Shown here in pieces: positions 5,314 through 64,000 of a DNA stretch of 64,000 bases (positions are counted from its first letter, which is position 1; each line of letters begins with the position of its first letter). The DNA is from Heptranchias perlo. Taxonomy: Eukaryota. The stretch is from positions 13,144,001-13,208,000 of the forward strand of contig NC_090335.1 in NCBI RefSeq assembly GCF_035084215.1. Direction: 5' to 3'. Position numbers and translations under genes: made by a program. Below the pieces are notes generated by a model. It was not told the DNA's origin, did not search any database, and saw nothing but the letters and a program-made list of their open reading frames with translations.

Positions 5314-5760
5314 AAGAAGTTTGCTACGGATTCAATTCATAGAGGATCCTTTTCACTCGAGATTTGGAAAATTGCCATCCGTGGCAATGCAATGGATGCA
5401 GCCTATAAAACGTTAAGTAGTTTAAAGTGCAAGTAATTTTTATATTTTGCAACATGTTTATGTTTTGTGGCTACATCTTAAGTCATTGTCTAAACAGACA
5501 TGAGAAGATGGCTCTCTACCCGATACAAGAAATTGTCGAGACATTTTATTTTTGGAACTAGTTTTTAAATTTTATTGTGCCAGTTCTCAGAAGGAGACAA
5601 TTCTGTTCAAAATCCATCTACTTAACTTCAAGGAGGTGATCGGATTTATAATAAGATACAAACCAGGTTCTGCAGTAAACTAGTGAGTGCAGTTGCAGTG
5701 AAGGTCGTTGTGAAATGTAGCCATTGTATGGCATTCTAAGTGCTTTGTTTTTTGTTCCAG

Positions 5761-5887
5761 TCGAAATCAACTCTCCACATTGCCATCATGCCTCTGTGCC
5801 CTGCCTCTTAAAGTCTTGATAGCCAGTAACAATAAGTTAGTGTCGCTTCCAGAAGAAATTGGACAATTGAAATGTTTAATGGAACTG
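5761..5887 (+). CDS. LRCH1: LRCH1 exon 3 (LRR): RNQLSTLPSCLCALPLKVLIASNNKLVSLPEEIGQLKCLMEL
   Basis: tttgttccag| acceptor, |gtaggt donor, 127 nt, phase 2 to 0; overlaps ORF 5780..5980. Confidence 0.95.
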
Positions 5888-6451
5888 GTAGGTATTCTTT
5901 TTTATTATAAACTGCATTTAATAAGTCTAGTCTGTCTAACTACAAAGTTGCTTAGAGTTTGTCAGCATTCAGTTCTTTAACACTTTAACAGCAATGACCA
6001 ATGGGCAGCAATTGTCACACTTCAGCTTAACTTTCTGAATGGATAAAGTGTGTGTGTCCACATTGTGAAGTAATACACTTGCACAGAAGTACAAATGCAG
6101 AGCAAACTGGTCCAAATTATTTCCAATATTTCATACATTTGGGGGCAGCCTGGTTAAAAATGTGCCTATTTGGACATACACGAGTGCTTTTAAGTATTTT
6201 TCCTGTAAGTTTGATTTGGGTTTCTAGATTCCATTGGAGTGGCCGCTTTCATTAATTAAGAATCCAAGGGGCAGGACCTCAGCCCATACTGTGTGACATT
6301 ACCATGGTTTAAAAGAATTGAAGAGAAGACATAGTAAATCAGGGACTAGTGATTAGGTGACATCAAGCTTGCACTTAAAAGCACTAATGTTATAGAGAGA
6401 TTTGTAAACAATTTTACAACACCAAGTTATAGTCCAGCAATTTTATTTTAA

Positions 6452-6492
6452 ATTCACAAGCTTTCGGAGGCTTCCTCCTTCCTCAGGTGAAC
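6452..6492 (-). ncRNA. Minimal type I hammerhead ribozyme motif (inverted copy)
   Basis: Exact reverse complement of 6506-6546. Confidence 0.72.
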
Positions 6493-6505
6493 GTTTGTTG
6501 GAAAT

Positions 6506-6546
6506 GTTCACCTGAGGAAGGAGGAAGCCTCCGAAAGCTTGTGAAT
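6506..6546 (+). ncRNA. Minimal type I hammerhead ribozyme motif
   Basis: gttcac-CTGAGGA-a-ggagg aag cctcc-GAAA-gc-TT-gtgaat: 6-bp stem I, core, 5-bp stem II, palindromic AGCT in place of helix III. Confidence 0.75.
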
Positions 6547-7090
6547 TTAAAATAAAATTGCTGGACTATAACTTGGTGTTGTAAAATTGTTTACAATTGT
6601 CAACCCCAGTCCATCACCGGCATCTCCACGTTACAGAGAAGGAAAGAACAAGGAAGGTAAATGGTTCCACAGTTTTGAGGTCCTAGGAAAGATTGAGTTG
6701 GTGTAGGAAACTGGAATGAATCTTGATTTCAACACAATGAAGATGTAAGAAGAATTAGTGAGGAAAGTTCAGAAGGATACTGACCCATGTAGGATCAATA
6801 AAGTAGGGACAGGAAAGGTTGCAGTTGAGGGAGAGATAGCAAGAGATTGGATTCTAGAAGTGAGAGACAACAAGTATCCTGTCCAGGATTGCAGAGATAT
6901 GTTAGAGTCCAACTTTCCACCTCCACCCCCCACTCCCCCAGTCGATAAACTGTTTTCAAGTCTTGGACAGACTTGGATTTAAAGAGAGTTTAGAGTTATT
7001 GAGGGAGAAAAAAGTGCTTGGCATTAAAGAGGAAAGTGAACTTCTTGGAGGCAACTTTAGCAATGAAGTAGATAAAGTAAAGGAAGAAGA

Positions 7091-7517
7091 AACTTGTATT
7101 TCTAGCACCTTCCACGATCTCAAGATATCCCAAAGTGCTTCACAGCCAGTTAAGTATTTTTTTAATGTAGTCACTGTTGTAATGTAGGGAATCAAGGCAG
7201 CCAATTTGTGTACAGCTAGGTCCCGCAAACAGTGTTTTAGTGATGTAGGTTGAGGGATAACTGTTGGCCAGGACACTGGGAAAACCTCCCTGCTCTTCTA
7301 CGATTAGTGCTGCGGGATCTTTTACGTTCACCTGAGAGGGCAGACGGGACCTCGGTTTAACGTCTCAGCTGAAAGACGGCACCTCTGACAGTACAGCACT
7401 CCCTCAGTACTGCACTGATGGGTCAGCCTAGATTCTGTGCTCAAGTCTTTGGAATGGGGCTTGAATTCACAACCTTCTGACTCAGAGGCGAGAGTGTTAC
7501 CACTGAGTCATGGCTGA
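7091..7517 (-). mobile_element. tRNA-derived Deu-domain SINE (SacSINE1-like), near full length
   Basis: Deu core gacggcacctctgacagt...cactccctcagtactgcactg; tRNA-like head at the right end; L2-like tail at the left end. Confidence 0.8.
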
Positions 7518-7809
7518 TAATTTGAATTTCATTTGAGGTAGGAGGAAATAGCGAAACATAAAATGTAGGTAGATGAAGAGGGACTAAGGGTGGAACTATC
7601 AATTGCGAGAGGTTGAAGCTGTTGGGTGGATTTACAAGAGGGATGAAGAAATCGCACCCTGCATTAGTCATTATCTACATTGCTCTTGCAGTATGATAAC
7701 CATTGTGTGTTATGGGTTGTGTTTATGTGGTCCAAGAAAATTCACATTTCATGCCATTGACATTCCATTCCACAAATTAATTGCAATGATCTTAATTTTA
7801 AGATTGCAT

Positions 7810-9530
7810 TAAGCAGTACAATGGAATGCTAACTTCTTTACGCAGAGAGCGGTTAGAATGTGGAACTTGCCACCACAAGGAGTAGTTGAGGCGAATAGCA
7901 TAGATGCATTTAAGGGAAGTTAGATAAGTACATGAGGAAGAAGGGAATAGAAGGACATGCTGATAGGGTGAGATGAAGTAGGGTGGGAGGAGGCTCATGT
8001 GGAGCATGAACACCAGCATCGATCATTTGGGCTGAATGGCCTGTCTCTGTGCTGCAAATTCTATGTAATATATACTATGTCATTTGAAGAACGAATATAA
8101 CATATGATTTAGTACGTCAGCATTGTCGTGCACCATGACACAGAGTGGCAGGAGAGATATCTGTGCACTTGCTTCCCTACATGATCATATCTTGATCTCA
8201 GTGTGCTGTTGGGAGGCTGTGCTGGACTGAGGGATTAGGAAAGGAGGAGGAGAAATGGAAAGTTGGTTCAAGATTCTCAACATCGTATCCAGGACTGCTT
8301 TCTAGTTTTAGTCCAACAAGGGAGGAGGTCAGATTTAGTTCTGGGAAATAAAGTGGAGCAAATAGATAATGTAAGGGTTGGGGAACATTCAGGATGCAGT
8401 GAGTTAGCTTTGATATAAAACTTGAAAAGGAGAGGCAACAGTCAGTTAAAGGTACCCAGCTGGAAAAACAGGAAATTTCAAGAGAAAAAAAGAAACCATT
8501 CCAGATAAACTGGAAGTAAAATTTGGCCGATAAGACAGTGGTCAAACACAACAAAAACGACTTGCATTCAGATACAAAAAACACTGCAAAACTTTCAAAT
8601 AGTCACTGTACAATGCTAAGAGAAGTCAGTGAGGAACTAGCAGAGGCTCTGACCACAATCTTTCAAACAGCCATGGATGTGCCAGAGGACTGGAGGGTTG
8701 ACAAAGTGACACCTCTGCTCAAGAAGAGAGAAAGGGATAAACTGGGTCTGGGAGGCAGAATATGAAAATTCACAAATGACACAAAGATAGGGAGCATGGT
8801 TAACTGTGAAAAGACTGTATGCAACTTCAGGAGAACATAGATGAAATAAATGTGCAGTGATAAGTTTTGGGCGGAAGACTAAGGAGTGGAAATATACACT
8901 AAATAGTAAAACTTAAAAAGGAGTAAAGGGACTTAGGGGTTCAGATACACAAATCTTTAAAAGTGAGAGGGGAAGTGTTGTAAATAGGGGCGTTGAGTAC
9001 AAAAGCAAAAAAATTAATGTTAAACCTATACAGATCATTAGTTTGGCTGTGGTTAGATTATTGTGTCCAGTTTTGGGTGCCCTATTTTGGAAGGATGTTC
9101 AGGCTATGGAGAGAATACAGAAGAGATTTGCTAAGAAAAAACAGAGACGCTTTAGATATGTGGAAATACTAGAGGGACTAGGATTCTTGACTATAAAAAG
9201 AGATTCGGAGGGGACCTGATGTTCAAAATAATGAGGGGTTTTGAGAAGGTAAGTAGGGGAACTTATTTTCACAAGTCAGTGAGTTGGTAACTAGAAGGCT
9301 TAAATTTAAAATGATCACCAAAAGAACGAAGGGAAAGGTTAGGAAAGTTTATTTTGTGTAGAGAGTCATTAAACAGTGATGGAAGCAGAATAACTTAAAA
9401 GGGAAGTAGATAAATATTTGAAAAAGGAAAAAAATGTCAAGGGTATGGGAATATGTGGATAGTTTTTTGAGAGCCAGCACAGGCATGATGTGCTGAACTG
9501 CCTCCTTTTTTGCTGCAAGGTTATGTGATT
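7810..9530 (+). mobile_element. Cluster of decayed CR1 LINE fragments
   Basis: Translations include DVPEDWRVDKVTPLLKK (CR1 RT motif VPEDWR); CR1-type 3' tails at ~8010-8070 and ~9470-9530. Confidence 0.75.
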
Positions 9531-9689
9531 CGAATTTAATTTCACTACTTTACCTGGTAAATCATTACAAACCCTTTTGAATAAAGAAACTTTTTCTAAG
9601 ATCTGTTTTAAATGTATATTCTTTTATCCTACTGATCTTAAAATAGTGTTCGAGATGAATTTTATCTTTGCCATTTAATACTTTACATG

Positions 9690-9960
9690 CCTCGCTGAAA
9701 ACGCCCACCCCTTTAACCCTCTCTTTAGAATGTGGAACTTAAGCTTCTCTAATGTTCCTCATTCCACATCCATTTTCCTCTTGAGATTGTTCTTGTTGCT
9801 CTTCTCTACAACCTTTCCAGTGCTGGAATGTCCCTTCTGAAGTGTGGTGACCAGAAATGAAGACTGTTCCAAGTGAACTCCGACCAATGCCTTATAAAGG
9901 CTTAGCATAACCTCTGTACACTTGCACTCCACTCTTCTGGCTATGTATCCAAACATTTAA
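9690..9960 (-). mobile_element. CR1 LINE fragment
   Basis: ORF 9759..9956(-): GYIARRVECKCTEVMLSLYKALVGVHLE, the CR1 ORF2 C-terminal motif. Confidence 0.75.
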
Positions 9961-10359
9961 TTACTTCTCCAAATTGACTAGTTAATTTATGGAGATTAAT
10001 TTGTTTATCTTTAGTTAGATACAGTAATCTTTAAATAAGATGGGTATTAAATTTATACAGAATCGGGCCTGCTTCTGGATGATACCGGAAGCATCTTAAC
10101 CAGCTGGAAGCAGGTGGACTAGGCATTAATACAGCAAATTATCTGAGCAGATTTTTGTGCTGGTTCATGGAGGCACAGTCGTACTAAGGGTGGTACATGG
10201 GCTACAGGGAAAGTACTTTGAAGTAAATAGGAAGGGGGGAAGAACTAGGGGAAAAAAGTAAATTTTTTTAACCAGAAAGACGAGACAAAGTCAGATAACA
10301 GATTTGCGTGAATGGAAGAGGAGCAAGACGTGTAAAAGGATATGGTTATAAAAGGGCTG

Positions 10360-10650
10360 GATGCTCTTAAAGCAGACACAAGTACCTGGTTCAGGCGACT
10401 GGTATCCCCAAGTCTTAATGGTGATGAGAACTAAAATCTATAATGCTTTTAACTGACACTTTGGTAAGTTCAGTAATTCAGGAAAGATTCCTTAGGATTG
10501 GAATGTGACCAATATAAACCCATTATTTTAAGAAAGGGTCGAGACATAACTGGATACTACAGACCAGTATATTTAACATCTGTTGAAGCGAATGTCGTTG
10601 AAATGATCGTCGGAAATCGAGTGGGTGAATACTTGGAAGAGAGTAAATTT
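10360..10650 (+). mobile_element. CR1 LINE RT fragment
   Basis: Translation includes KG...YRPVYLTSV (CR1 motif NYRPVSLTSV). Confidence 0.7.
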
Positions 10651-10876
10651 GTTGAAAGGCAGTCTCGTGCATTCTCTGTATCGTGCGTTCTCTCTCTCGT
10701 GTGTTCTCGTGCATTCTCTCTCACTGTGATAGAGCGATTAGCACTGTGCTTTTTAAGTGCACTTGATTGTAGTTCCTGTATAATTCAGTAGCATATAGCT
10801 CTTTATGGAATCAGATTATAATTTTCAGCAAGAATCCTGTAATGGTTACTTTGTTTTTGCTCCTTTTAATATTCAG

Positions 10877-10982
10877 GATGTAAGCTGCAATGAAATTACA
10901 GCTTTGCCACAACAGATGGGACAACTTCAGTCACTCAGAGAGTTGAACATCAGGCGAAATTATCTGCAGATTTTGCCAGAGG
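10877..10982 (+). CDS. LRCH1: LRCH1 exon 4 (LRR): DVSCNEITALPQQMGQLQSLRELNIRRNYLQILPE
   Basis: attcag| acceptor, |gtgaaa donor, 106 nt, phase 0 to 1. Confidence 0.95.
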
Positions 10983-31885: not shown

Positions 31886-31973
31886 CCTGAGGAAGGAGGA
31901 AGCCTCCGAAAGCTTGTGAATTTAAAATAAAATTGCTGGACTATAACTTGGTGTTGTAAAATTGTTTACAATT
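31886..31973 (+). mobile_element. Penelope-like pseudo-LTR fragment with hammerhead core, inserted in the exon 10 acceptor region
   Basis: 88 nt identical to 6511-6598; ends 6 nt before the exon start; preceded by a duplicated atgatgcttgttact (31853-31867 and 31871-31885). Confidence 0.85.
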
Positions 31974-31979
31974 ACACAG

Positions 31980-32047
31980 GGAAGAGTGACGGAGCCTGAG
32001 GAACCGCTGAGAATTGAGGAAGATGCAAGTTGGACATTGGAACAGAT
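31980..32047 (+). CDS. LRCH1: LRCH1 exon 10: GRVTEPEEPLRIEEDASWTLEQ
   Basis: acacag| acceptor, |gttagt donor, 68 nt, phase 0 to 2; LRIEED motif. Confidence 0.88.
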
Positions 32048-32594
32048 GTTAGTAATTTTTATATTTTGATTCTTGTTCAGAAATACAGTGAAACTTGTAA
32101 GTTAGGGACACCTAAGCGACTTGCAGCGGGTGTCCTTTATTTGCAGATGTCCTTATTTTCAAAATGGTCATTGTATGAACCGGAGGAGCAAAATATCCCT
32201 GGATTGTCTGTATCTCCTGTGGCGTTCCTTCTTTCTTTTGCCTGCACCTGGGATCATGCCTAATTCTGGAGCCCTGCCAGTGGGATGTGATTTCAGTTCA
32301 TTTTCTGTTCGTTGGGTTTTCCAGTTCATTGCCATTCTGGGGTCCTTTTCCATTGGGAGAGGGATGGCCTGATCCTGGGATCTGCTTCGTTGGCAGCCTG
32401 CACAATGCAGCTGCTGTAGGGCCCAAGTGCCTGGGAGATCCCAGCCATATGTGGGGGGGCAGGGGGGGAATTAATGTCCTACAGATCCCTGCCTGGGAAC
32501 CCCTCCCACCGTGTGCTGCAGCTGCTAATATTTGAAGTGCTGGGAGGTGGGTAGGGGGCTGTTAGCAGCTGATGTACTGGTAGAGTGAGATGTC

Positions 32595-37420: not shown

Positions 37421-39233
37421 ATCTTTACCACAAAAGTAAGTATCCACAAACTGTAACCTTCCATTTTCTCCTCACTCCTTTTATGTCTTGTTCCTCTAGG
37501 ATGCTCTGAGCTTTCCTTCATTTTCACTTCCTTTTCTATAATGCCATTGGGTTTCAAATGCTGAATAATACTATTTGACACTGTTATTTTCTGTGCTACT
37601 TCTCTATTCTTTTGCCCCACTTTGCTGTACCCCAATCTCTCTCTCTTACCACTCCCTCTCTCACATGTCCAATACCAACCACTTATCAGCTATAGCCTAA
37701 TACTGCACTTAAACTGTACTATCCTATTCCACTATCCTCTCCTTTAGCCCTTTGAATACCAAACTTTGCTCACAGCAATAGTAGTTTCTGAACATCCTCC
37801 ACTATTACAGTTGTATATGTAACACAGTACACAAACCACTGCAGTTAATTCCATTCCCTTTTGCAAGTGATGCTTGATCTTCAGTATATTTACAAACTAC
37901 TTTCGGCCCTAAATTATCTTTGACTCAGTTAAGAAAAATCTTCCAGATGATTTAACCAGACAAGAACACTTAGCTAATTTATCCTTTAGGCAACTTGAAA
38001 TATGCTTTTTACCCTTCAATATCCTGCCAACAGTTGAAGCAACTTTCCTTATCCTTTAAACAGCCTTAAAACAACTTAAAATATCTATTACTTAACATAA
38101 AATTATATTCCACTGTTCCTGCCAAAACAGGAACTTACAGTAATCCACCTCTTACAATTGTAAATTTCATTCTTGATTTTTTTTTTAATGTTCATATGTA
38201 CTTAGATTTTCACTGACAGTTTGCTCGCTTTTCCCTCATTTGATTAGTACTTTACCTACCTCTACAGTTGCGATTTGTGGTTGTTATAGAAATTATGAAC
38301 TTTCAGCCAATCAGTTGAAAGTGTGGTGCGTATAGAAAAGTGTGACAAACAAAATGCATGCATACAAAATAAACTTGCATTTATATAGCATCTTTCACGA
38401 CCTCAGGATGTCCCAAAGCACTTTACAGCCAATTAAATACTTTTTGTAGTGTAGTCACTGTTACACTGAAATATATACATGGATACATTATATGTGTGTG
38501 TTAGTGCTGCGTTTTTGGGTTTTATGCTGCTACATATGTTACCCAAGTTAATTGGCCACTCCCTTAAGCGGACCTCCATCCTCTTTGATCTGGAGTGCAC
38601 TTTTATTGCCCAATATCAAGGTAAATGATAGCGCGACCCAGGGATCGAATAGAGAACCCTTGGCACCGTACAGTGAGTTACTGGTATGTATCACATGCCA
38701 CATTGTGGTACATTATCCTTATCTTCAATAGGTGGATTGAACAAACACTTAATCTGCCTGAGGCTCATACTACAAAATAGACAAATTTATTAACACGGAC
38801 CAGGTGAATGGACAGTACTAAGTGTAAACAATGTGTTTATGTTAATTTACAAACTTTGCTATTATTCACAATACATCAAAACAATAAAGATGCTTCCCCA
38901 GTTATCTTTCAACATAACTAGATGCCTGAAAATGGTTACTCATTTCTTACATGGAAGAACACTACCACAGAGTCAAACTAGCCTGGACACTGACTGTAGA
39001 CACTCTGACTGTGGACTGACTAGTTGGACGTAAGCAACCGCAGATATATCCCCAGTCAGAGGTTTCTGGCTACAGGACTGTCCATCAAAATGATGACAGC
39101 CAATCATTAACCCTACCCCTTCTCACCGCCCTGAGACACAAGTGCCAATCAAAATCATCACCCCCCCCCCCCCCAAACTAGTTGGTTTGATTCTTTCTGT
39201 GTCAGGAGCCTTGATCGACCCGTTTCAAGCCAC

Positions 39234-39614
39234 TGTGTGAGAATGTCCTCCATTTGGAGTGTGAGCTGCGTGAGAATGCCCTCCATTTGGAGTATGAGCT
39301 GCGTGAGAATGCCCTCCATTTGGAGTATGAGCTGCGTGAGAATGCCCTCCATTTGGAGTGTGAGCTGCGTGAGAATGCCCTCCATTTGGAGTGTGAGCTG
39401 TGTGAGAGAATGCCCTCCATTTGGAGTGTGAGCTGTGTGAGAGAATGCCCTCCATTTGGAGTGTGAGCTGTGTGAGAGAATGCCCTCCATTTGGTGCGTG
39501 GGAGTGCCCTCCATTTGGTGCGTGGGAGTGCCCTCCATTTGGTGCGTGGGAGTGCCCTCCATTTGGTGTGTGGGCTGCGTGAGAGTGCCCTCCATTTGGA
39601 GTCTGAGCTGCGTG
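39234..39614 (+). repeat. Minisatellite, 12 units of 33, 35 or 24 nt
   Basis: Core gaatgccctccatttgg(agtgtgagctgcgtga) repeated; explains the repetitive ORFs at 39158-39755. Confidence 0.95.
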
Positions 39615-39885
39615 TTCCTTAGAGGTGAAACTGGTTCCATAAAAGAGCAGCTCCCCTACTCTGAGGACACCCGAGATTGTGGTATGTTGAAGATCTTTTT
39701 CAAGAGATTACTGTCTACCAATAATTTTCAGTCAGATTTGTTGATGAATATTTAAAAACAACCCAATTTAAATTTTTAAAATCAAATTGACTTCTAAATT
39801 TGATGAAGCAACTCGCAAATTGTTCTGGCGAATTAAAGCAACTGTTCACTTATTTAAAATGTTTTGCTATTTCTTTGCCACTCAG

Positions 39886-62905: not shown

Positions 62906-63154
62906 GCTGGCACACAACAACATGAGGAGGAAGGACAATCAAAACCAGGTGTTCCCCCACAAGAAGGGTAGGAATATTAGAGCGGGTGTCTGCTGGCTGC
63001 TCTCGCTGAACTCTTTGTGCCCAGAGAGAGCGAGAATTTGCCAGAGACTTGAGGTGCTTGGCTGCCAACATCCTTGGCGGAATATGGTAGATGGTAGATG
63101 ACATAATGCAAGGTCAAGGGATCCACCATTTTGAAACAAAAATGTCACCCTCAT

Positions 63155-64000
63155 AAGGCAAAGGAGAATCCAAAGAGCTTCTACAAATACATAAAGGGCA
63201 AAAGAGTAACTAGGGAGAGAGTAGGGCCTCTTAAGGATCAACAAGGTCATCTATGTGCGGAACCACAAGAGATGGGTGAGATCCTAAATGAATATTTCAC
63301 ATCGGTATTTACGGTTGAGAAAGGCATGGATGTTAGGGAACTTGGGGAAATAAATAGTGATGTCTTGAGGAGTGTACATATTACAGAGAGGGAGGTGCTG
63401 GAAGTCTTAACGCGCATCAAGGTAGATAAATCTCCGGGACCTGATGAAATGTATCCCAGGACGTTATGGGAGATTAGGGAGGAAATTGCGGGTCCCCTAG
63501 CAGAGATATTTGAATCATCGACAGCGACAGGTGAGGTGCCTGAAGATTGGAGGGTAGCAAATGTTGTGCCCTTGTTTAAGAAGGGCAGCAGGGAAAAGCC
63601 TGGGAACTACAGACCGGTGAGCCTGACATCTGTAGTGGGTAAGTTGTTAGAGGGTATTCTGAGAGACAGGATCTACAGGCATTTGGAGAGGCAGGGACTG
63701 ATTAGGAACAGTCAGCATGGTTTTGTGAGAGGAAAATCATGTCTCACGAATTTGATTGAGTTTTTTGAAGGGGTAACCAAGAAGATAGATGAGGGCTGTG
63801 CAGTAGACGTGGTCTACATGGACTTTAGCAAAGCCTTTGACAAGGTACCGCATGGTAGGTTGTTACATAAGGTTAAATCTCACGGGATCCAAGGTGAGGT
63901 AGCCAATTGGATACAAAATTGGATTGACGACAGAAGACAGAGGGTGGTTGTAGAGGGTTGTGTTTCAAACTGGAGGCCTGTGACCAGCGGTGTGCTTCAG
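63155..64000 (+). mobile_element. Very young CR1 LINE, 5'-truncated ORF2 (reverse transcriptase), running off the window
   Basis: Stop-free 282 codons: KENPKSFYKYIK...KSPGPDEMYPRTL...VPEDWRVANVVPLFKKG...NYRPVSLTSVVGKLLE...QHGFVRGKSCLTNLIEFF...YMDFSKAFDKVPH. Confidence 0.95.

What the first reader, a model, noticed from the sequence alone, without database searches (positions are those of the whole stretch)
6389..6639. Back-to-back minimal hammerhead ribozymes in a perfect 91-bp palindrome inside LRCH1 intron 3
Seen: arms 6402-6492 and 6506-6596 are exact reverse complements with a 13-nt spacer. Each arm holds gttcac-CTGAGGA-a-ggagg aag cctcc-GAAA-gc-TT-gtgaat. A ~33-nt tail and a 10-bp near-identical target duplication flank the insertion. 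Known: Penelope-like retroelements carry minimal type I hammerheads lacking a stable helix III, which cleave as dimers through a palindromic loop (here AGCU), and they leave inverted pseudo-LTRs with a short 3' extension. Inference: the sense copy (predicted cut 6540/6541) is in the LRCH1 pre-mRNA but would be masked by the upstream antisense arm. That makes a self-silenced ribozyme that is also a ~90-bp dsRNA substrate for ADAR or Dicer.
Basis: partly seen in the sequence, partly recalled or inferred. Interest (0 to 1): 0.7.

Follow-up and report, generated by a model that had tools for sequence, protein, structure and literature searches.

The report
Penelope retrotransposon stub with masked hammerheads
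This mirror-image DNA in an intron of a shark's LRCH1 gene is one of at least 3,900 similar head-to-head scraps of a young Penelope-type jumping gene, and the tiny self-cutting RNA motif in each arm is predicted to be inactive here, so it is likely an ordinary by-product of how the element inserts rather than a gene switch.

Summary
In detail: exact 91-bp inverted arms, 13-nt spacer, 33-nt tail, a 9/10 target duplication, and a minimal type I hammerhead motif in each arm, in a spliced intron of shark LRCH1. The parent is found: a very young, abundant Penelope-like element (918-aa RT + GIY-YIG frame, Neptune/Nematis-type linker) with this hammerhead in both terminal repeats; the long arm matches a parent's leader plus tail at 117 of 118 bases. 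The genome holds 27,386 exact copies of this hammerhead and 3,904 back-to-back pairs; 25 of 44 sampled long-armed pairs are also perfect. Inverted repeat, tail, target duplication and minimal hammerhead are all published Penelope features. Masking is predicted strongly (57-70 kcal/mol), but 'self-silenced ribozyme' overstates it: published lone minimal hammerheads did not cleave, one needed the element's protein, and no intact partner lies on this strand in the window. The geometry best fits two reverse transcripts primed on opposite strands and joined head to head (inferred). ADAR or Dicer use could not be tested. This scan found the same family and reading many times on other DNA of this genome. 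Ordinary; interest low.

The parts
6389..6398 (+). left target-site duplication (imperfect, 9 of 10)
   Evidence: family norm is a perfect 12-14 bp (39 of 50)
6399..6401 (.). three bases that fit neither the element nor the right-hand duplication
   Evidence: unexplained
6402..6506 (-). short (tail-less) arm: antisense copy of the element's leader, from the putative transcription start (about 29 nt after the TATAAA of the parent) to the upstream reverse-transcription start site; includes the 13-nt 'spacer'
   Evidence: parent 3' pLTRs end at the same place in 4 of 5 long copies
6452..6492 (-). minimal type I hammerhead motif, minus-strand copy (predicted cut 6458/6457)
   Evidence: exact complement of 6506-6546
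6502..6506 (.). junction: 5-nt overlap of the two arms (likely annealing point of two cDNA ends)
   Evidence: overlap 5; similar junction in L002-L005
6506..6546 (+). minimal type I hammerhead motif, sense to LRCH1 (stem I 6 bp, stem II 5 bp, no helix III, palindrome AGCU, predicted cut 6540/6541)
   Evidence: no Rfam hit
6506..6596 (+). long arm: sense copy of the pseudo-LTR end
   Evidence: 6512-6629 matches the 5' pLTR + tail of parent L053 at 117 of 118
6597..6629 (+). 33-nt Penelope 'tail', ending 3 nt before the parent's start codon
   Evidence: tail concept from PMC8557442, PMC11167929
6630..6639 (+). right target-site duplication
5759..5887 (+). LRCH1 exon upstream of the insertion (exon 3 if one exon precedes the window)
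10877..10981 (+). LRCH1 exon downstream of the insertion

Best explanation
This is a short head-to-head insertion of a young, abundant Penelope-like retrotransposon in an LRCH1 intron, likely made by two reverse transcripts of the element's RNA leader primed on opposite strands of the cut target and annealed at their ends, and its two hammerhead motifs are predicted to be inert passengers. Shown: family membership, parent ORF, copy numbers, arm ends, host splicing across it. Inferred: one cDNA began at the upstream start site and ran to the RNA 5' end (short arm), the other began at the tail end (long arm), and the two joined through a 5-nt overlap. Because both copies point outward, a polymerase on either strand makes the antisense arm first, so the hammerhead is predicted to be trapped in a 91-bp duplex; even free, a lone minimal hammerhead is not expected to cut.
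For: Parent: L011/L012/L017/L027 continue upstream into a GIY-YIG frame; 918-aa open frames with RT (Pfam RVT_1 3e-9), DKG, YIDD, CX4CxxC linker and GIY-YIG sit between two copies of this hammerhead in L053 and L054. Copy number: 27,386 exact hammerhead matches, 3,904 back-to-back pairs, controls 0; 150 of 150 scored endonuclease matches 95-100% identical. Of the first 50 pairs on contig C1: 47 have exactly one tail, 39 a perfect 12-14-bp duplication, 25 of 44 long-armed pairs are perfect. 28 of 100 arms end at +29/+30 from TATAAA and only 8 of 100 go further upstream; this copy's short arm ends there. The longer leader is on the short arm in 13 and on the tail arm in 13 (21 equal, 3 without tail); here it is on the short arm, which fold-back from the tail arm cannot give, and fold-back from the short arm cannot give the tail. 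6 of 50 pairs differ between arms at the G/C subfamily site N7, which a copy of a copy would not give. The Anolis element nicks and extends both strands, models as a dimer, and starts RT at two sites that bound the tail (PMC11167929). Masking: stem I pair probability 0.98 without, below 1e-40 with the antisense arm; forcing the hammerhead costs 57-70 kcal/mol.
Against: Only 6 of 50 pairs are discordant at N7 against about 20 expected from independent draws, so most pairs share a source RNA or one arm is partly copied from the other. The target duplication here is imperfect and three bases are unexplained. The 50-copy sample is the first 50 on one contig, holds one duplicated pair (L084/L085), is limited by the pattern to gaps of at most 30 nt, and several copies belong to subfamilies missing from my 26 reference leaders, so their 5' ends are underestimated. 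The transcription start is inferred from a TATA-like box and an initiator-like sequence only. No cleavage assay exists for this family; clade (Neptune versus Nematis) was not resolved by a tree.
Confidence: 0.8

Rival explanations
1. Same Penelope insertion, but the palindrome arose by fold-back self-priming of one cDNA (or of an antisense template), one arm being copied from the other.
For: Arkhipova et al. 2013 read palindromes at inverted junctions as self-priming (PMC3846280 passages). The leader end can form a 5-bp near-hairpin at this junction (sequence). 44 of 50 pairs agree at N7, more than independent templates would give.
Against: In this copy the unpaired leader lies on the tail-less arm, and across 50 copies it lies on either arm equally (13 versus 13); a single fold-back cannot supply both the tail and this loop. 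6 of 50 pairs carry different subfamily letters in the two arms.
Confidence: 0.2
2. The palindrome acts on LRCH1: the 91-bp duplex in the pre-mRNA is edited by ADAR or diced, or the hammerhead is conditionally unmasked and cuts the intron.
For: LRCH1 is spliced across this intron in 2 of 2 runs laid (one sample, RNA is a guess), so the intron is likely transcribed; a perfect 91-bp duplex is predicted; long intronic duplexes are ADAR substrates in general (recalled).
Against: The insertion is very young (arms identical, 100% to other copies) and one of thousands; it lies about 500 nt from the nearest exon and normal GT..AG joints skip it. Lone minimal hammerheads did not cleave (PMC4209133) or needed the element's protein (PMC11167929); the only other same-strand core in the window has lost stem I. 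Unmasking costs 57-70 kcal/mol.
Confidence: 0.07
3. A separate non-autonomous mini-element (MITE-like or retrozyme) that moves as a pre-formed palindrome.
For: Similar total length in many copies, and the same junction recurs in L001-L005.
Against: Centres differ from copy to copy among the 50 sampled; arms track the subfamily letters of the autonomous element; not a head-to-tail array as animal retrozymes are (bioRxiv 10.64898/2026.07.22.740005). The recurring junction is explained by the 5-nt overlap.
Confidence: 0.05

Closest known systems
Endonuclease-bearing Penelope-like elements of the Neptune/Nematis type, with inverted 5'-truncated copy, 30-40-bp tail and TSD (Craig et al. 2021, PMC8557442, passages; Arkhipova et al. 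2013, PMC3846280, passages)
   Same: RT + C-terminal GIY-YIG, DKG, CX2-5CxxC linker, cysteines between GIY and YIG, pseudo-LTRs, head-to-head inverted copy, one tail, TSD
   Different: Here both copies are cut down to the leader alone (about 105 and 125 nt), no ORF sequence; such stubs number in the thousands in this genome
[quoted passage not shown]
   Same: Core boxes, extra nucleotide between 9 and 10.1, G10.1-C11.1 pair, no helix III, palindromic 15.2-16.2; that paper also notes pairs on opposite strands 100-700 bp apart
   Different: Cores here are only 25 nt apart inside one perfect duplex; U at the cleavage site; sharks not named in the parts read
PAc Poseidon element of Anolis carolinensis (Frangieh et al. 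2024, PMC11167929; main text read)
   Same: Hammerhead near the pLTR-ORF junction, two RT start sites bounding the tail, both strands nicked and extended
   Different: Different clade; in PAc the ORF starts inside the hammerhead and the tail lies within the ORF, here the tail ends just before the start codon; activity of this family untested
Non-LTR retrozymes of animals (bioRxiv 10.64898/2026.07.22.740005; abstract, introduction, methods, first results read)
   Same: Non-coding, type I hammerhead, PLE-derived
   Different: Retrozymes are head-to-tail tandem arrays; this is a head-to-head pair with a TSD

Membership tests
EN+ Penelope-like element (parent family) | Single ORF with RT and C-terminal GIY-YIG endonuclease linked to this sequence | tested here: met
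   918-aa frames in L053, L054; RVT_1 3.3e-9; GIY-YIG recognised by motif (VVYLIRC...WYIGET...RMNGH), Pfam gave no GIY-YIG hit
EN+ Penelope-like element (parent family) | Pseudo-LTRs flanking the ORF, each with a hammerhead | tested here: met
   Sense hammerheads 3,067 and 3,071 nt apart in L053 and L054
EN+ Penelope-like element (parent family) | Inverted 5'-truncated copy and a single 30-40-bp tail | tested here: met
   33-nt tail here; exactly one tail in 47 of 50 pairs
EN+ Penelope-like element (parent family) | Target-site duplication | tested here: inconclusive
   9 of 10 match here against perfect 12-14 bp in 39 of 50 others; no empty site found
Neptune/Nematis clades | CX2-5CxxC linker before GIY-YIG plus CCHH motif | tested here: met
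   CHGNLCKTC and CRKGC in P0001; definition from PMC8557442
Neptune/Nematis clades | Placement in an RT phylogeny | not tested
   No reference RT set fetched
Minimal type I hammerhead | CUGANGA and GAAA..UH boxes with helices I and II, extra base after A9, G10.1-C11.1 | tested here: met
   Sequence; isolated arm folds into both helices, z -2.0 to -2.2
Minimal type I hammerhead | Covariation in helices among relatives | tested here: inconclusive
   Fifth pair of helix II is G-C here, A-U in 6, C-G in 4, unpaired A/C in 20 of 30 related-subfamily loci; outer pairs of helix I are not kept; inner pairs were fixed by the search pattern
Minimal type I hammerhead | Palindromic 15.2-16.2 allowing a dimeric helix III | tested here: inconclusive
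   AGCU present and kept in 30 of 30 related loci (partly fixed by the pattern); duplex only -2.5 to -4.3 kcal/mol, and the predicted best dimer swaps helices I and II instead
Minimal type I hammerhead | Self-cleavage | not testable with these tools
   Needs an assay
Rfam hammerhead families | Match to a covariance model | tested here: not met
   0 matches at E<=10 on 6498-6570; only sub-threshold hairpin families on 6200-6900
Non-LTR retrozyme | Head-to-tail tandem units each with a hammerhead | tested here: not met
   Two copies, head to head

The most novel reading that the evidence does not exclude
A dimeric Penelope protein twin-primes two leader RNAs at each landing, so thousands of head-to-head stubs cannot cut their host transcripts and instead make perfect 85-105-bp duplexes of the element's own leader; read through from host introns such as LRCH1, they would feed a copy-number-sensing small-RNA or editing response against the active family, an automatic brake built by the transposition mechanism itself.
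Probability: 0.12. Interest if true: 0.65.

Novelty: new member of a known kind. Interest (0 to 1): 0.18.

Why it matters
The single locus matters little. As a population, the 3,904 head-to-head stubs of a still-young family are a natural record of how Penelope elements make inverted repeats and tails, a step that published work leaves open (PMC8557442, PMC11167929), and their fixed 5' wall points to the RNA start. If the duplexes are edited or diced in bulk, they would be a large source of endogenous double-stranded RNA in this shark. Earlier notes of this scan already raise the mechanism for the same family.

Tried and rejected
Rfam scans gave no hammerhead hit; the miRNA-family matches (all under their thresholds) only reflect a long hairpin. 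Pfam did not recognise the endonuclease (0 families for P0001). Empty site: a search with the right flank found no second copy of the locus, only an older repeat at 75-86%, and the two relatives examined (L059, L060) did not align across the insertion point, so the TSD mismatch is unresolved. Expression: no RNA holder listed; four contig sets of one sample (RNA a guess) pile up on the element because it is multi-copy; no listed piece bridges this locus's flank and the element by 31 or more letters, and the A>G differences at 6568 and 6571 cannot be told from paralogues (a genomic pair differs A/G at the first site, L080), so editing is untested. Contigs cannot show small RNAs or cut ends. Literature: 'Penelope + inverted + shark + hammerhead ribozyme' gave 0 papers; 'Penelope-like + twin priming' gave 3, none on this by title or abstract start (listing only); the ADAR search gave general papers (listing only); subscription journals and Repbase are not covered, and supplements were not opened. 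Rejected: assembly artefact (arm ends asymmetric, tail and TSD, thousands of like copies with different centres); miRNA precursor; separate MITE. LRCH1 intron 1 (outside the window) was not searched for a dimer partner.

Full report
Observation. The arms 6402-6492 and 6506-6596 are exact reverse complements with a 13-nt spacer; a 33-nt tail (6597-6629) follows, and 6389-6398 matches 6630-6639 at 9 of 10 bases. The region folds into one hairpin at -171 kcal/mol, z -29.8. Each arm holds a type I hammerhead motif without helix III: stem I 6506-6511/6541-6546, CUGAGGA, one extra A, stem II 6520-6524/6528-6532, GAAA-GC-UU, predicted cut 6540/6541. Taken alone the arm folds into both stems (z about -2). 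Rfam has no matching hammerhead model, so the assignment rests on the descriptor of Cervera and De la Pena 2014 (PMC4209133; abstract, results, discussion read), whose extra base after A9, G10.1-C11.1 pair and palindromic 15.2-16.2 are all present.

Host gene. The exon at 669-817 hits proteins named LRCH1, best in sharks at 96-100%; six shark LRCH1 proteins map exon by exon across the window; an esterase exon lies 32 kb beyond the window end (the LRCH1-ESD neighbourhood is recalled). Contigs of 2 of 2 runs laid (one sample, RNA a guess) join 5887 to 10877 over a GT..AG intron. The element is intronic and the + copy is sense. 'Intron 3' assumes a single exon upstream of the window, recalled from the human gene.

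Parent. A DNA search of the own genome gave 1,074 candidates; the 40 scored were 97-100% identical. Four of 30 loci run upstream into a GIY-YIG frame. That peptide found 40,057 candidates, the 150 scored at 95-100% identity. Of five long copies fetched, L053 and L054 carry 918-aa open frames between two sense copies of the hammerhead about 3.07 kb apart, with RT, DKG, YIDD, a CX4CxxC linker and cysteines inside GIY-YIG; by Craig et al. 2021 (PMC8557442, passages) this is the Neptune/Nematis type. No tree was built. Window 6512-6629 matches the 5' pLTR plus tail of L053 at 117 of 118 bases, and the tail ends 3 nt before the start codon.

How common. 27,386 exact matches to this hammerhead, 12,397 to sister subfamilies and 3,904 back-to-back pairs with at most 30 nt between the motifs; reversed-pattern controls 0. 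I examined the first 50 pairs on contig C1 (50 of 3,904; one duplicated pair, L084/L085, left in): 47 have exactly one tail, 39 a perfect 12-14-bp duplication, and 25 of the 44 with long arms are perfect palindromes. This locus is typical, except that its duplication is imperfect. The architecture (inverted 5'-truncated copy, 30-40-bp tail, TSD) is described in PMC8557442 and PMC3846280 (passages), and opposite-strand hammerhead pairs in PMC4209133.

Mechanism. The spacer is element sequence: the short arm continues antisense into the leader and stops about 29 nt after the parent's TATAAA, in an initiator-like TCATTTC. 28 of 100 sampled arms end at +29/+30 and 8 go further upstream, which suggests run-off at the RNA 5' end (inferred; the pattern's gap limit trims the distribution, and some subfamily leaders were missing from my 26 references). 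The outer ends are two fixed sites 33 nt apart; in the Anolis element the tail is the stretch between two RT start sites, both strands are nicked and extended, and the protein models as a dimer (PMC11167929, main text read). Here the arms overlap by 5 nt at 6502-6506. The longer leader is on the short arm in 13 pairs, on the tail arm in 13, equal in 21. In this copy it is on the short arm: fold-back from the tail arm cannot give that, and fold-back from the short arm cannot give the tail. Six of 50 pairs carry different G/C letters at N7 in the two arms, which needs two templates; but independent draws would give about 20, so most pairs share a source. I therefore favour two cDNAs primed on opposite strands and annealed head to head (about 0.65 for this step), over fold-back self-priming as proposed in PMC3846280 (about 0.2). 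I took this reading from earlier notes of the scan and tested it on my own sample.

Ribozyme. Both copies point outward, so on either strand the antisense arm is made first. Stem I pair probability falls from 0.98 to below 1e-40, and forcing the hammerhead costs 57-70 kcal/mol. Masking is well predicted but probably moot: a lone Schistosoma minimal hammerhead showed no cleavage and dimers little (PMC4209133); the Anolis motif cut only with the element's protein, was not needed for insertion in vitro, and no RNA-seq reads ended at its site (PMC11167929). A transcript of this locus has only one sense copy; the only other same-strand core in the window (31886) lacks the 5' strand of stem I; the helix III palindrome is worth only -2.5 to -4.3 kcal/mol. 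Covariation is weak: the fifth pair of stem II is A-U in 6, C-G in 4 and unpaired in 20 of 30 sister loci.

Double-stranded RNA. A 91-bp intronic duplex is a plausible ADAR substrate (recalled), but the only runs were contigs of one sample, swamped by paralogues; nothing locus-specific could be read.

Novelty and verdict. A new member of a known kind. Searches found no paper on shark Penelope palindromes with hammerheads and none on twin priming in these elements by listing, within the library's limits; the 2026 retrozyme preprint (parts 1-2 of 5 read) treats tandem arrays. The scan's look-up returned 241 fitting notes in this genome, the 8 shown all on this kind of element. The locus is a neutral young insertion; the population is a useful record of an open step in Penelope transposition. 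Interest 0.18.

Noticed in passing
window 31886-31973 (+): A second stub of the same family (88 bp, 100% identical, sense, starts at the C of the hammerhead core, no tail, stem I 5' strand lost) ends 4-6 nt upstream of the AG acceptor (31978-31979) of an LRCH1 exon (31980-32048, mapped). It separates the acceptor from its upstream pyrimidine-rich tract and is preceded by a roughly 15-nt local duplication; it could alter inclusion of that exon, a more likely host effect than the palindrome. Inclusion not tested.
   Followed up: partly
G000:C21:33756000-33765000 (L053) and G000:C6:68573600-68582600 (L054): Copies with 918-aa open frames and both pLTRs; in L054 the 5' and 3' pLTRs belong to different subfamilies (92% identical over 1,036 nt), a sign of template switching.
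   Followed up: partly
L061-L110: 6 of 50 palindromes have arms from different subfamilies at N7, against about 20 expected if templates were drawn independently.
   Followed up: partly
L111-L140: Sister subfamilies (12,397 exact matches) differ in stem II loop and closing pair and in the outer pairs of stem I, but keep the core and the GC-UU segment.
   Followed up: partly
window 7070-7540: An older, abundant interspersed repeat, heavily covered by contigs of all four runs at 90-95% identity; looks like a shark SINE (recalled), with a chance 13-nt match to the hammerhead start.
   Followed up: no
window, whole: Five further groups of exact inverted 20-mers besides this palindrome; at least one is the 31886 stub pairing with the minus arm.
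   Followed up: no
window 63107-64000 (+): 298-aa open frame of a CR1/L2-type LINE endonuclease-RT region (family name recalled).
   Followed up: no
window 39160-39710: Tandem repeat of 21-42-nt units giving long open frames on the minus strand.
   Followed up: no
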